This document shows, piece after piece, positions 16,169 through 23,151 of a stretch of DNA of 64,000 bases (positions are counted from its first letter, which is position 1; the number at the start of each line of letters is the position of its first letter). The DNA is from a virus (Duplodnaviria; Caudoviricetes): positions 5,241 through 69,240 of the IMG/VR virus record IMGVR_UViG_3300033069_001819. The stretch is one strand, 5' to 3'. The position numbers and the translations under genes are program-made. The notes beneath the pieces were generated by a model. The model was not told the origin of the DNA. It saw only the letters and a program-made list of their open reading frames with translations, and did no database searches.

Positions 16169-16241
16169 CCTGCCAGGCGTTTGCCTGGGCCACCGTTCGT
16201 CCGCTACCCTGTACGTAGTTTTCGGCAAAACAGGGGTGACG

Positions 16242-16580
16242 ATGCAGATCTATGGCGGGTCGGACTGGCGAAACAAGACGTACAGCCGTATGAACGTCTG
16301 GCAGCTGCAGCAGGCGCATCTGCCGCCTGCGCACAAAACGGAGCAGCAGCGTAACGCCGAGCTGTCCGTCGGCGACATCGGATTGTCTTCCCGTGTCGCC
16401 AATCAGCTGGAAGAAGCCAGCGTCTTCACGGTCCAGGATCTTCTTGCGCAGCAGGAAGACGTGATCGAGGCATTGTCGTTTCTTGGCGCCCGCGCCATGA
16501 AGGAATGCTGCCGGGCGCTGCGTAATCTCGGTTTCGACAATCAGTACTGTCATGTGGCCAGAAAACCGAAGCGGCGCTGA
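16242..16580 (+). CDS. RNA polymerase alpha-CTD-like protein
   Basis: LSVGDIGLSSRVANQLEEASVFTVQDLL...LSFLGARAMKEC matches the alpha-CTD helix-hairpin-helix pattern (VDDLELTVRSANCLK...GDLV...NLGKKSLTEI). Confidence 0.8.
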   Translation: MQIYGGSDWRNKTYSRMNVWQLQQAHLPPAHKTEQQRNAELSVGDIGLSSRVANQLEEASVFTVQDLLAQQEDVIEALSFLGARAMKECCRALRNLGFDNQYCHVARKPKRR

Positions 16581-19799: not shown

Positions 19800-20075
19800 A
19801 TGAAGCTCGAACCGGGAACGGTTTGGGAGTGTGTCCGGGCCATTGACCTGGGCGAATACGAGACGATCCTCGTCAAGAAAAAGCCCGTGCGCGTCGTGAC
19901 CTGGCATCTCGGACGTGAGCCGGACTACACGCGAGACGACGTCACCCACGTGCACGTGCAGTTCCTGGCCTGCACATCAATCGGCGGTGGTTGGCAGAAA
20001 AGCTACAAGGCGAACAAGCCAGTACTTCGATTAAGGGAAGAAACAACGAATGAACCAGACACTGCTGCAGTATGA
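19800..20075 (+). CDS. Hypothetical protein
   Basis: GGAG RBS and ATG 19800. Confidence 0.6.
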   Translation: MKLEPGTVWECVRAIDLGEYETILVKKKPVRVVTWHLGREPDYTRDDVTHVHVQFLACTSIGGGWQKSYKANKPVLRLREETTNEPDTAAV

Positions 20076-20511: not shown

Positions 20512-20520
20512 GCTAGTCGT

Positions 20521-20842
20521 CAAAATGGGCTGTTTGTAACGGTCAGGTAAGCTTGCCGCCAAAAACAGCCCTTTTTGTCGTCGTGTAAGCTGTTCTTGCT
20601 GCGCTGAACAGCATAGCCTCGAACGGAGAGGTTTTTCAATACTGAACATAAAGTACCTGACAAGTTAGTGCGGCCTTTACTTTATTCCTTCGGAATAAAG
20701 CAGGAGAGAATTTTCAAAATACCAAGAAAAAGAAAGAGAGTAACCGATTAATACGACTAATATTACTAGATTAATAACGATTAAGGGGGAATAGAGAATG
20801 AAAAATGACCTGAGTAGAGAGAAGCACGCACGAAGTGCGTGC
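20521..20842. other. AT-rich non-coding region with inverted repeats; candidate replication origin
   Basis: 38 of 120 bases are G+C in 20701-20820; hairpins at 20680-20700 and 20824-20842; inverted repeat 20521-20535 / 20563-20577. Confidence 0.55.
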
Positions 20843-20886
20843 ATATCGAAAGAAGGAATTCACCGTCGATCGAAACGAGGTAGCGC

Positions 20887-21156
20887 GTGAGCGAAAAACA
20901 AGTTGTTGACGACAGGACAGACAGTATCAAGCTGACCCTTACCGTGCGACTGGGTCTGCAGGACATGCAGAGTCAAAAAAGGGCTTTATCGCTTATCCTG
21001 TTTCGCGCAGACTTACGCGATCAGCATGAGACTGCCGAAGGTCTTCTTTCCTTGCTGGACTATCTGCAGGACGCGATTGTGGATCAGGGACTGGCGACGG
21101 AAGAAGAAGTGTTCGGTCCTGACTACGGAAAGGATTCGTGCGATGACGAAGACTGA
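20887..21156 (+). CDS. Hypothetical protein
   Basis: GAGG RBS, GTG start. Confidence 0.65.
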   Translation: MSEKQVVDDRTDSIKLTLTVRLGLQDMQSQKRALSLILFRADLRDQHETAEGLLSLLDYLQDAIVDQGLATEEEVFGPDYGKDSCDDED

Positions 21157-21376
21157 CACGAGTGCGGAACTGCTTGCGGACGATATCACTGAAAACGCCC
21201 TGGCCTACGTTCGTGCTGCGCGACGACCGCTGCTGGTTCCGGTGTATGTCGCAGACGATCCCGAGTTCGGTATCTTCATGCGGCTGCCCACGCACAGTGC
21301 GACCCGCTGGGAGCGTATCGCCGACTCTGCGGTGTGTCAGCTTTATCCAGGTGTTCCACCGGTTCGATCGACATGA
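21143..21376 (+). CDS. Hypothetical protein
   Basis: AAGGA RBS, ATG 21143. Confidence 0.55.
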   Translation: MTKTDTSAELLADDITENALAYVRAARRPLLVPVYVADDPEFGIFMRLPTHSATRWERIADSAVCQLYPGVPPVRST

Positions 21377-22287
21377 AGGTAACGCACTACTCACTGCGAC
21401 CTATGCAGAGTTCCTGGGAGCTCCCGTGGTCTCGCCGACTGGTTTTGCTCCAGACGCGGTCCGCGCAAGCTTCCACACACCGGTTTCGGGCGATGATTCG
21501 CCGGCACGTGAGCGATGCCGCCGACTGCTATCGCAAGTCTTACGACCTTGCGTGCCAGTCCAAAGATTCGTCGGACATCGGCGACGCGCTGTTCGCTGAT
21601 TCGGAAACACGCGAGGAAAAGTACCTGAAAGTCGTCTCGCAGTTGGAGCGTATCATCAACTGCCGCCCTGCTGGTTTTCTTACGCGACCGGTGTCGTACA
21701 CCTGCCGTGACCGTTTTGTGTGTCCCTGGTGCTTTGTGCGTGAGCGATTCGCTCCGATACGACGCATCATCGACATGATCAACAGCACGAACTTCGAGTT
21801 CGAGGTGCGTGTCTGGACTCAGCCCATTGGTGACGTGCCACGTAAAAACTGGTTCTCTTCTCCTCGCGGTCATGGGTTACACGGGTCGACCGATGCCTGG
21901 GCGACGGTACAGACCCTGGTCTATGACTATCTTCCGCAGTACGGTACTACCGGTCTGCGGAAGATCGTGCTGCAGTTACTTCCCGTCATGGCGGGTCGTA
22001 ACAGCGAACACAAAATACCCGCCAATGCCGAGTATTATCGGGCGTATTCCCGTGACAGACTTACAGTCGACGCCAATGTCGAGCGACTGTTCCTGGTCAA
22101 CTGGACCGAGCTGCTCACAGAGGAATTCGTGCCCAACTATGTTTTCTACCGACAATTGTGCGACAGGACGAGGTTCATGCGAATCTCGATGCTGCCCGTA
22201 CTCAGAGCGCTGCTCAAGGATAACGCTGATGTTGATTCACCCACCTCCGAAGCCGAGTCGACTCTCAACGACGACTGGGATGATTGA
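21373..22287 (+). CDS. Hypothetical protein with Rep/IS91-like Cys cluster
   Basis: ATGA overlap; INC...TCRDRFVCPWC..RER. No HUH motif seen. Confidence 0.6.
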   Translation: MKVTHYSLRPMQSSWELPWSRRLVLLQTRSAQASTHRFRAMIRRHVSDAADCYRKSYDLACQSKDSSDIGDALFADSETREEKYLKVVSQLERIINCRPAGFLTRPVSYTCRDRFVCPWCFVRERFAPIRRIIDMINSTNFEFEVRVWTQPIGDVPRKNWFSSPRGHGLHGSTDAWATVQTLVYDYLPQYGTTGLRKIVLQLLPVMAGRNSEHKIPANAEYYRAYSRDRLTVDANVERLFLVNWTELLTEEFVPNYVFYRQLCDRTRFMRISMLPVLRALLKDNADVDSPTSEAESTLNDDWDD

Positions 22288-22758: not shown

Positions 22759-23151
22759 TTACTCCGCGCTCAGGTGGTTCATCTTGCAGTCGACGAACTC
22801 CGGTTCGTTCACGTGCATGCTGATCGCGTTCTTGATCGCGACCCGGTGTCGGTTCTCGTCCCTGATGAACTTGGCCCGCTTGACGATTTCCGCGTCGGTG
22901 AGCTGGTCCTCGTAGCCCGCGCGTAACTCGCTTTCTGCGTCCCAGATACGGGCATTCGCTGTGTACAGCGCGTCAAGAAGTTGCAGCAGAACCGGGTCGC
23001 CTGTGTCAATTCCGTCGGTATAATGCGAGACCTGTTTGACGAGCAGTGCCTTGTCCATCTCGCTGTCCGGCAAGCGTTCGTACTTCAATCTTGCGATCGT
23101 AAGCCGGTCGCAAACGTCACAGATCGGTGTCGCGACAATCTTTCGTGCCAT
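22759..23151 (-). CDS. DUF6165-like protein
   Basis: DRLTIARLK...LYTANARIWDAESELR...IRDENRHRVAIKNAI matches the DUF6165 pattern. Confidence 0.7.
   Translation of the reverse strand: MARKIVATPICDVCDRLTIARLKYERLPDSEMDKALLVKQVSHYTDGIDTGDPVLLQLLDALYTANARIWDAESELRAGYEDQLTDAEIVKRAKFIRDENRHRVAIKNAISMHVNEPEFVDCKMNHLSAE

What the first reader, a model, noticed from the sequence alone, without database searches (positions are those of the whole stretch)
20521..20886. Candidate origin: AT-rich core flanked by mirror-image C-GAA-G triloop hairpins
Seen: the largest non-coding gap in the window, with a purine-rich core of 32% GC (20701-20820) containing GATTAATA twice. The left hairpin CTTTATTCC-TTC-GGAATAAAG (20680-20700) has a C-GAA-G loop on the minus strand. 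The right hairpin GCACGCAC-GAA-GTGCGTGC (20824-20842) has a C-GAA-G loop on the plus strand. Each strand therefore carries one such hairpin 3' of the core. There is also a 15-bp inverted repeat (20521-20535 / 20563-20577) and a 6-bp-core variant of the dispersed palindrome, CAAAAA-CAGCCC-TTTTTG (20560-20577). Known: C-GNA-G loops form exceptionally stable ssDNA mini-hairpins and are the recognition element of coliphage N4 virion RNA polymerase promoters. Inference: a symmetric bidirectional origin, or a pair of hairpin promoters or priming signals.
Basis: partly seen in the sequence, partly recalled or inferred. Interest (0 to 1): 0.7.

Follow-up and report, generated by a model that had tools for sequence, protein, structure and literature searches.

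The report
Mirrored DNA mini-hairpins, candidate phage origin
An uncultured giant phage has one very AT-rich gap in front of its DNA-replication genes, bracketed by two small hairpins written on opposite strands; at least 14 further distant relatives keep the same mirror design, so it is a real signal and most likely marks where DNA copying starts, though this is unproven.

Summary
The window is part of a 69-kb viral contig, estimated one third of a ~200-kb jumbo phage.

In the window:
- The gap 20512-20886 holds two perfect three-base-loop hairpins. GAA is on the minus strand at 20680-20700 and on the plus strand at 20824-20842.
- They flank the most AT-rich 80 bases of the contig (25% GC; the next lowest is 40%).
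- Simulated sequence gives 0.007 close pairs of such hairpins per contig, and no mirrored pair in 300 trials.

In distant relatives, at the same place upstream of the replication genes:
- The same mirror pair recurs, and the stems differ between lineages, with compensatory changes.
- The loop stays G-N-A (GTA, GAA, GGA, or GTTA), always on the plus strand at the right and the minus strand at the left. There are 12 such ordered pairs and none reversed.
- The element occurs once in a complete 205-kb relative.

Conserved G and A with a free middle base is the signature of DNA mini-hairpins. This points to a single-stranded-DNA signal.

Best reading (about 45%): a bidirectional replication origin with strand-specific priming signals, working like ssiA/ssiB of plasmid RSF1010. 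Main rival: a terminator-promoter boundary with RNA hairpins.

Function is untested. GC skew was uninformative. This scan has flagged similar mirrored elements in other jumbo-phage genomes.

The parts
20518..20580 (+). Terminator-like long hairpin (9-pair GC-rich inner stem, A-tract before, T5 after) directly behind the stop codon of the 153-aa ORF.
   Evidence: DNA fold -16.5 kcal/mol, z -5.2. Contigs of two RNA-labelled runs of one study stop at 20530 and 20556 (weak hint only).
20680..20700 (-). Left mini-hairpin: 9 perfect pairs, with a C-GAA-G loop on the minus strand. The pyrimidine-rich 5' arm resembles the arms in relatives.
20701..20823 (.). AT-rich, 70% purine core and candidate unwinding element. 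It holds a polypurine run at about 20722-20738, GATTAATA at 20746 and 20769, and GATTAA again at 20779.
   Evidence: lowest GC of the contig; motifs unique to the gap. No predicted RNA structure inside it.
20824..20842 (+). Right mini-hairpin: 8 perfect GC-rich pairs, with a C-GAA-G loop on the plus strand.
   Evidence: Unchanged in a near-identical DNA variant that has 3 substitutions in the core (run X7).
20798..20890 (+). 30-codon ORF that overlaps the right hairpin. A ribosome-binding-like site lies at 20783-20789, and the stop overlaps the GTG start of the next ORF. It may or may not be translated.
   Evidence: The same 10-base ribosome-binding-like string precedes the gene at 20050. No homologue in relatives.
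21334..22287 (+). First conserved gene downstream of the element in relatives: a four-cysteine plus alpha/beta protein of unknown function. It is a possible origin-binding or initiator candidate; this is inference only.
   Evidence: invariant C110, C124, C130, C133. Model pLDDT 66. Only weak fold hits, some to HUH Rep domains. No invariant tyrosine.

Best explanation
The stretch 20680-20842 is most likely the phage's replication origin, or at least its start-site module. An easily melted, purine-rich AT core is bracketed by two single-stranded-DNA mini-hairpins, one per strand, each lying 3' of the core on its own strand.

Proposed mechanism (inferred):
1. The core opens or the inverted repeats extrude.
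2. The strand carrying the G-N-A loop keeps its compact hairpin, which resists single-strand-binding protein. The complementary strand becomes ordinary single-stranded DNA.
3. The persistent hairpin on the plus strand at the right edge positions the first primer for the leftward leading strand.
4. The hairpin on the minus strand at the left edge does the same for the rightward leading strand.
5. The freed complementary strands are where the phage's DnaB-like helicase can load and pass across the core.
6. Priming would be by the phage primase (30576-31706), or by a short transcript through the purine-rich core.

Shown: the hairpins, their mirror strand arrangement, their conservation with compensatory changes, the single copy per genome, and the position in front of the replication genes.
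Inferred: that they act as DNA, and that the act is initiation of replication.
For: 1. The two hairpins and the extreme AT core are real and far beyond chance.

2. The design is conserved at the syntenic place.
- That place lies between the alpha-CTD-like gene and small early-type genes on one side, and the conserved gene plus the SbcD, SbcC, helicase, DnaB, primase and PolA genes on the other.
- It is seen in relatives that share only 35-55% protein identity and no alignable DNA in the gap.

3. In 811 kb of relatives' loci the ordered pairs left-TNC / right-GNA number 12 and the reverse orientation 0. GTA and TAC are the commonest loops of all three-base-loop hairpins there.

4. Nine of ten distinct stems of inverted-repeat-type pairs carry G-N-A at the right: GTA seven times, GAA once, GGA once. 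One pair has ATA, and a further pair has the four-base loop GTTA. Only the middle base varies, as expected for a sheared G:A pair.

5. Stems change in a compensatory way. This is seen between the left and right copy in L031, L102 and L120, and between lineages L084 and L101. These changes keep each local hairpin and break pairing between the two arms.

6. In the window and in L032 the two hairpins have unrelated stems yet keep the mirrored loops. The mirror is therefore not just a by-product of an inverted duplication.

7. The element is the only close inverted-repeat pair in a complete 204.8-kb relative and in a 173-kb one. G-N-A hairpins are not dispersed through these genomes. This fits one origin better than a promoter class.

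8. Nearly all genes lie on one strand, so a two-fold symmetric, two-strand signal has no obvious use in transcription.

9. Precedents:
- ssiA of RSF1010 carries a C-GAA-G mini-hairpin. ssiA and ssiB are inverted repeats on opposite strands of oriV (PMC13037366, PMC8567376).
- In phage N4 the hairpin on the strand bearing the G-N-A loop survives SSB, while the complementary hairpin is melted (PMC4496689).
Against: - There is no functional data of any kind.
- Cumulative GC skew of the contig has its minimum near window 16.2 kb, about 4.5 kb left of the gap, and skew in relatives is monotonic.
- In several relatives the core is 600-1200 bases long and contains plus-strand ORFs, which is unusual for an unwinding element.
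- In many relatives a GC-rich, terminator-like hairpin abuts each small hairpin on the core side, and a 24-34-base palindrome lies outside it. This also fits a transcriptional or protein-binding module.
- The window lacks those extra hairpins, and its right stem is unlike the family pattern. Homology of the window's element with those of relatives rests on synteny and design, not on alignment.
- One lineage has loop ATA, and the L008/L003 lineage has other loops.
- The class of the phage primase could not be resolved.
- No clear iterons or initiator protein were identified.
Confidence: 0.45

Rival explanations
1. Transcription-unit boundary. The gap ends the upstream (early-type) operon and starts the replication operon. 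The AT core is a promoter, the right hairpin sits in the 5' leader RNA, and the left hairpin sits in the 3' tail of the upstream RNA, acting in stability, processing or attenuation.
For: - A good terminator-like hairpin follows the upstream stop codon.
- A ribosome-binding-like site and start codons follow the core.
- The element sits at the junction of small early-type genes and replication genes in every relative.
- Inner GC-rich hairpins followed by T-rich arms in relatives look like terminators.
- Contigs of RNA-labelled runs stop at 20530 or 20556 and resume at 20836 (one study, label uncertain).
- Other reports of this scan read some hairpin clusters in jumbo phages as RNA genes.
Against: - It does not explain why the left hairpin keeps G-N-A on the minus strand even where its stem is unrelated to the right one (window and L032). 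No minus-strand genes are nearby.
- It does not explain why orientation is 12 to 0.
- G-N-A three-base loops with a variable middle base are a DNA stability motif, not an RNA one (PMC13037366).
- The small hairpins have no T-run after them (one search lists only a minus-strand match at the right hairpin).
- No plus-strand sigma-70-like promoter was found in the core.
- The core motifs occur nowhere else in 69 kb, unlike the repeated early-promoter motifs described for polymerase-encoding jumbo phages (PMC7598289).
- The core has no predicted RNA structure, and there is no Rfam match.
Confidence: 0.25
2. Single-stranded hairpin promoters. A phage RNA polymerase that reads the template strand recognises each extruded G-N-A hairpin and transcribes toward the core. 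This gives short convergent transcripts, possibly primers, in which case this reading merges with the origin reading.
For: - N4 virion polymerase promoters are three-base-loop hairpins with GGA or GAA loops and a C:G closing pair on the template strand (PMC4496689, PMC13037366).
- Relatives encode phiKZ-like multisubunit polymerase subunits.
- The AR9 non-virion enzyme of that kind recognises the template strand and can start on single-stranded DNA (PMC7598289).
Against: - N4 needs a purine at the loop centre. Most relatives have T there.
- Stems here are 7-13 pairs, against 5-7 in N4.
- No conserved bases lie at a fixed distance on the core side.
- There is one pair per genome, not a set in front of early genes.
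- No T7/N4-type polymerase family match was found in five relatives, although the control genomes were silent too.
- No giant virion-polymerase-sized ORF exists in the complete relative.
Confidence: 0.12
3. A double-stranded protein-binding or recombination site: operator palindromes, an invertible segment, or the remnant of a small mobile element with terminal inverted repeats.
For: - Many relatives have 44-88-base inverted-repeat arms around a 150-1200-base core.
- Outer palindromes share a TACCA...TGGTA centre in four lineages.
- A winged-helix gene lies next to the element in L008 and L003.
- Several contigs break at the element.
Against: - The window and L032 have no long inverted repeat. 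Their two hairpins have unrelated stems, so one dimeric protein or one recombinase cannot read both.
- The conserved asymmetric loop is irrelevant to a double-stranded palindrome.
- Compensatory changes preserve the local hairpins, not arm-to-arm identity.
- No recombinase gene lies nearby.
- The element is at one syntenic site and single copy, so there is no sign of mobility.
- Contig breaks are expected at inverted repeats longer than the assembler's word.
Confidence: 0.08

Closest known systems
ssiA/ssiB single-strand initiation signals in oriV of the IncQ plasmid RSF1010, read by primase RepB'
   Same: - Two hairpin signals on opposite strands in inverted orientation, once per replicon and beside an AT-rich region.
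- The ssiA hairpin is capped by the same C-GAA-G mini-hairpin.
- Synthesis runs toward the 5' end of the hairpin-bearing strand (PMC8567376, PMC13037366).
   Different: - No RepB'-type primase, RepC initiator or 20-base iterons were recognised here.
- In RSF1010 the two signals lie side by side at one side of the AT-rich region (from memory). Here they bracket the core.
- There is no sequence relationship. The RSF1010 record was not in the held collections, so no direct comparison was made.
Hairpin promoters of coliphage N4 virion RNA polymerase
   Same: - A three-base loop with 5' G and 3' A, closed by C:G, acts on one strand only.
- The hairpin on that strand survives SSB, while the complementary one is melted (PMC4496689).
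   Different: - The central purine that N4 requires is T in most relatives.
- Stems here are longer, and the flanks are not conserved.
- N4 has several promoters in front of early genes; here there is one mirrored pair.
- No N4-like polymerase was found.
G4-type complementary-strand origins (phages G4, St-1, alpha3): primase-dependent hairpin clusters
   Same: - A run of two or three adjacent hairpins on one strand includes a G-N-N-A or G-N-A mini-hairpin motif and is proposed to stay free of SSB and be read by primase (PMC13037366).
- Relatives of this phage have three consecutive hairpins per arm.
   Different: - Those are single-strand phage origins on one strand only.
- Here the set is duplicated in mirror image on a double-stranded 200-kb genome.
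- The window itself has only the small hairpin in each arm.
Promoter-plus-AT-rich origins of T7 (primary origin) and T4 (oriF, oriG); from memory
   Same: They lie at the start of the replication or middle genes, and an AT-rich unwinding stretch follows a promoter whose transcript primes the leading strand. The purine-rich core here could give a stable RNA-DNA hybrid.
   Different: Those origins have no mirrored mini-hairpins. No promoter could be identified here.

Membership tests
IncQ-type ssi signals (ssiA/ssiB) | Two hairpin signals in inverted orientation on opposite strands of one origin | tested here: met
IncQ-type ssi signals (ssiA/ssiB) | Hairpin capped by a C-GAA-G mini-hairpin | tested here: met
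   Both window hairpins. Relatives mostly have GTA.
IncQ-type ssi signals (ssiA/ssiB) | Cognate RepB'-type primase, with RepC iterons next to the signals | tested here: not met
   - The window's primase matches only a phage primase family (PHROG 47).
- No Pfam match and no significant PDB sequence match were found.
- The only short direct repeats are GATTAATA twice and a 13-of-15 repeat.
IncQ-type ssi signals (ssiA/ssiB) | Sequence similarity to ssiA/ssiB | not tested
   The RSF1010 record is not in the held collections.
N4 virion-polymerase hairpin promoters | Stem of 5-7 pairs and a three-base loop with a purine at its centre | tested here: not met
   The window's loop centre is A but its stems are 8-9 pairs. 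Nine lineages have T at the centre and stems of 7-13 pairs.
N4 virion-polymerase hairpin promoters | N4-like (T7-family) virion RNA polymerase encoded | tested here: inconclusive
   - PF00940 was not found in five relatives, but the control genomes were silent too.
- The largest ORF of the complete relative is 1479 aa, and its 1479-aa counterpart in relative G001 is a multisubunit-polymerase beta-like protein.
- Only a third of this phage's own genome is held.
N4 virion-polymerase hairpin promoters | Several copies in front of early genes, with conserved bases between hairpin and start site | tested here: not met
   One mirrored pair per genome. The core-side flanks are not conserved.
Intrinsic (rho-independent) terminators | GC-rich hairpin followed by a T-run on the transcribed strand | tested here: not met
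   - This is not met for the two small hairpins on the plus strand.
- It is met by the separate hairpin 20518-20580, which is filed as a terminator.
Invertible promoter segments (invertons) | Inverted repeats flanking the segment, plus a recombinase | tested here: not met
   The window has no long inverted repeat around the core, and no recombinase gene was seen nearby.
Known RNA families (Rfam 15) | Match at the gathering score | tested here: not met
   (the best hit has E 0.71 to an unrelated family).

The most novel reading that the evidence does not exclude
A previously undescribed type of jumbo-phage replication origin. SSB-resistant G-N-A DNA mini-hairpins sit one on each strand at the outer edges of an easily melted core. 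They fix the start sites of the two leading strands and leave the complementary strands free for helicase loading. Notes of this scan suggest that the same logic recurs in several unrelated jumbo-phage clades.
Probability: 0.4. Interest if true: 0.8.

Novelty: new variant of a known kind. Interest (0 to 1): 0.62.

Why it matters
As far as I know and could find, origins of replication have not been mapped for jumbo phages (one search found no description in the held library). This element gives a precise, short, single-copy candidate that can be tested by cloning about 200 bases. It also comes with a clear prediction: changing the loop G or A, or swapping the strands, should abolish function, while compensatory stem changes should not.

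If it is an origin, it would extend the mini-hairpin priming logic known from an IncQ plasmid and small single-stranded phages to 200-kb double-stranded phages. It would also supply a marker for finding origins in metagenomic phage genomes. If it instead proves to be an RNA or promoter element, the strict strand rule would still need a new explanation.

Tried and rejected
Tools or records that were closed or not held:
The closest relatives of the SbcD-like protein (58% and 53% identity; ENA and Logan only) could not be fetched.
- The RSF1010 record is not in the collections.
- Honda 1991 and Geibel 2009 are not held.

Searches for relatives that gave nothing:
- No DNA match in the phage collection.
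- The two small proteins flanking the gap and the SbcC-like protein alone found no relatives in viral contigs.
- Local alignment of the gap against the relatives' gaps gave only noise-level scores. A shared 11-mer with L006 is therefore not evidence.

GC skew:
- It is monotonic in three near-complete relatives and so is uninformative.
- The start of the complete relative's contig lies in a gene and is a 101-base assembly overlap, not a genome end.

Sequencing runs:
- No RNA holder is on record. All runs are Logan contigs.
- The stretch 20557-20835 has no cover in the two RNA-labelled runs.
- No joints and no read ends could be seen.

The conserved downstream gene:
- No Pfam or PDB sequence match.
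- Model pLDDT 66. The best Foldseek E-value is 0.04, and the scattered HUH Rep domain hits have E > 0.1.
- The wide structural search was dominated by a helical hairpin.
- The Atlas gave nothing.
- I considered a rolling-circle Rep and dropped it, because no tyrosine is invariant.

Other ideas dropped:
- Packaging site: the terminase gene lies 6-12 kb away.
- A T7-type promoter at 20749-20758: one copy only, and no T7-type polymerase was seen.
- A literature search for a described jumbo-phage origin with hairpins found none.

Full report
WHAT THE WINDOW IS

The window is bases 5241-69240 of a 69,240-base viral contig that is estimated to be one third complete. The genome is therefore about 200 kb.

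The gap 20512-20886 lies between two groups of plus-strand genes.
- Upstream are small genes with no known family. This group includes an RNA-polymerase alpha-CTD-like gene at 16236-16580 and a glycosyltransferase.
- Downstream is a replication module:
  - a conserved four-cysteine protein (21334-22287);
  - a minus-strand DUF6165-like gene (22759-23151);
  - SbcD-like and SbcC-like genes;
  - a helicase, a DnaB-like helicase and a primase;
  - a family-A polymerase with a UDG-like domain, thymidylate kinase and a UvsX-like recombinase.

The terminase gene lies 6 kb to the left on the minus strand. No cultured phage is close: the best polymerase match is 26% identity. Relatives encode phiKZ-like multisubunit RNA polymerase subunits.

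THE OBSERVATION

Their stems are perfect, 9 and 8 pairs. GAA is on the minus strand at the left and on the plus strand at the right, each closed by C:G. Both fold far better than shuffles.

The core between them is 31.7% GC and 70% purine. The 80-base window 20705-20784, at 25% GC, is the most AT-rich of the whole contig by a wide margin; the next lowest is 40%. The short AT-rich motifs of the core occur nowhere else in the 69 kb.

In 300 first-order Markov copies of the contig, the mean number of pairs of such hairpins within 300 bases was 0.007. No mirrored pair arose.

With its T5 tail it forms a terminator-like hairpin right after the upstream stop codon. I treat it as the end of the upstream operon, not as part of the symmetric element.

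RELATIVES

Profiles of the SbcD-like protein and of the 130-aa minus-strand protein found 8, 25 and 60 loci in viral and metagenome collections.
- They share 35-55% protein identity with the window.
- Their GC content runs from 31 to 57%.
- Gene order around the replication module is conserved.
- The DNA of the gap does not align.

Even so, the same place upstream of the conserved four-cysteine gene repeatedly holds a pair of small hairpins in mirror image, 140-1200 bases apart.

An unbiased scan gave these results.
- Ten distinct stems of inverted-repeat-type three-base-loop pairs were found. Nine read T-N-C at the left and G-N-A at the right: GTA seven times, GAA once, GGA once. One reads TAT/ATA. 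One further lineage has the four-base pair TAAC/GTTA.
- Over all three-base-loop hairpins in 811 kb of these loci, GTA and TAC are the commonest loops.
- Ordered pairs T-N-C then G-N-A number 12, and the reverse order 0.

Stems differ between lineages and change in a compensatory way. This is seen between the two copies within L031, L102 and L120, and between L084 and L101. Those changes keep each local hairpin while spoiling pairing between the two arms. The unit under selection is therefore the local hairpin.

In the window and in L032 the two hairpins have unrelated stems but still carry the mirrored loops. The mirror is thus not a mere consequence of an inverted duplication.

The element is the only close inverted-repeat pair in a complete 204.8-kb relative and in a 173-kb one. 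Its arms occur only once in two further contigs. G-N-A hairpins are not scattered over these genomes.

In many relatives each arm has three consecutive hairpins on the G-N-A strand: an inner GC-rich one, the small one, and an outer 24-34-base palindrome. The window has only weak counterparts of the inner and outer ones.

WHAT THE PATTERN MEANS

The first and last loop bases are conserved and the middle one is free. A one-base insertion gives G-N-N-A. This is the signature of the sheared G:A pair that makes DNA mini-hairpins exceptionally stable (PMC13037366). It is not a known RNA stability motif.

The strand rule says that the right hairpin matters on the plus strand and the left one on the minus strand. 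Almost all genes of these genomes lie on the plus strand, so a two-strand, two-fold symmetric signal is hard to motivate by transcription. It is natural for a process that treats both strands alike.

Two experimentally studied systems use such hairpins on one strand only.
- In oriV of RSF1010, ssiA and ssiB are inverted repeats on opposite strands. ssiA carries a C-GAA-G cap, and the primase starts 3' of the hairpin and copies toward the 5' end of that strand (PMC8567376, PMC13037366).
- In phage N4, the template-strand hairpin with its G-N-A loop resists SSB while the complementary hairpin is melted (PMC4496689).

Transferred to this element, the geometry works as follows.
- A primer laid at the plus-strand hairpin on the right is extended leftward across the core.
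- A primer laid at the minus-strand hairpin on the left is extended rightward.
- These are the positions from which first primers become the two leading strands of a bidirectional bubble. This step is inference from the standard model of bubble establishment.
- The complementary strands at each edge are the lagging-strand templates on which a DnaB-type helicase must load.

The unique AT-rich core, the polypurine run, the single copy and the position directly in front of the replication genes fit an origin.

WHAT SPEAKS AGAINST IT, AND THE RIVALS

Nothing functional is known.
- GC skew cannot help. The contig's cumulative minimum is near 16.2 kb, and relatives are monotonic.
- Public runs were available only as assembled contigs. 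Contigs of two RNA-labelled runs of one study stop in the terminator-like hairpin and resume at 20836. A DNA contig of another study spans the element with three substitutions, all in the core. This is a weak hint of a transcript boundary and nothing more.
- Long cores with ORFs in some relatives, and terminator-like inner hairpins, fit a transcription boundary or an insulated small transcription unit.

I therefore keep these rivals:
- a boundary or RNA reading at about 25%;
- template-strand hairpin promoters at about 12%, a reading that would merge with an RNA-primed origin;
- double-stranded binding, inversion or mobile-element readings at about 8%.

The N4 membership test fails on three points: the loop-centre purine, the copy number and the flanks. 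The IncQ membership test fails on the cognate proteins. The claim is 'works like', not 'is a member of'.

RELATION TO EARLIER NOTES OF THIS SCAN

Notes on this genome led me to check the alpha-CTD-like gene. It is confirmed by Pfam (E 6.4e-7). In several relatives its homologue lies directly beside the element.

A word search showed that other agents of this scan have reported mirrored G-N-A mini-hairpin elements in several other jumbo-phage genomes. Most were read as candidate origins and some as RNA genes. None of those genomes is a sequence relative of this window. These are unchecked AI notes and are not counted as evidence here.

VERDICT

This is a real, conserved, strand-specific cis element of an uncultured jumbo-phage clade. 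It is most likely its replication origin or priming module, and it is a new variant of the hairpin-type initiation signals known from IncQ plasmids, small single-stranded phages and N4. Function remains to be shown.

Noticed in passing
window 16236-16580; L040 2329-2628 and L024 123-398 (reverse-complement coordinates): A stand-alone RNA polymerase alpha-CTD-like protein (PF03118, E 6.4e-7). In several relatives its homologue ends within about 20-50 bases of the left arm of the hairpin element. In the window it lies 4 kb upstream.
   Followed up: partly
window 20749-20758: A 10-base string identical to the first ten bases of the T7 class III promoter consensus (from memory) occurs once in the contig. 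No T7-type polymerase was found in five relatives, though the control was silent.
   Followed up: partly
L084, L101, L109, L112 (outer palindromes next to the small hairpins); L008 5976-6326: The 24-34-base outer palindromes share a TACCA-(2-4 bases)-TGGTA centre in four lineages, which suggests a dimeric DNA-binding protein. In L008 and L003 a weak winged-helix protein gene lies immediately left of the element.
   Followed up: no
G001 (L011 and L053): 192050-192390 versus 193649-193990; bases 1-148 versus 193470-193617: - In a 194-kb relative the element is embedded in a larger inverted duplication (343 bases, 90% identity).
- A third copy of the right arm starts the contig.
- Contigs of L112 and L102 also begin within about 100 bases of the element.
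- These are probably assembly breaks at inverted repeats, but rearrangement or inversion is not excluded.
   Followed up: partly
window 21334-22287 and homologues (alignment A3): The first conserved gene after the element has four invariant cysteines, including a CP(W/F)C-x-VR motif (the middle aromatic residue is W in six of the seven aligned sequences, F in one), and an alpha/beta domain. It has no family match. Weak structural likeness to HUH Rep endonuclease domains exists, but no tyrosine is invariant.
   Followed up: partly
window 20625-20639 and 20703-20717: A 15-base direct repeat, 13 of 15 identical, brackets the left hairpin. It is not significant on its own (rough expectation 0.16 in the gap).
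   Followed up: no
G001 82004-86443 and 88153-91335 (L057): Relatives encode phiKZ-like multisubunit RNA polymerase beta/beta'-like proteins (1479 and 1060 aa). The clade therefore probably transcribes with its own polymerases. No such gene lies in the 69 kb held for this phage.
   Followed up: partly
window 20028-20037 and 20778-20787: The same 10-base ribosome-binding-like string precedes the gene at 20050 and the 30-codon ORF at 20798. This favours translation of the small ORF that overlaps the right hairpin.
   Followed up: no
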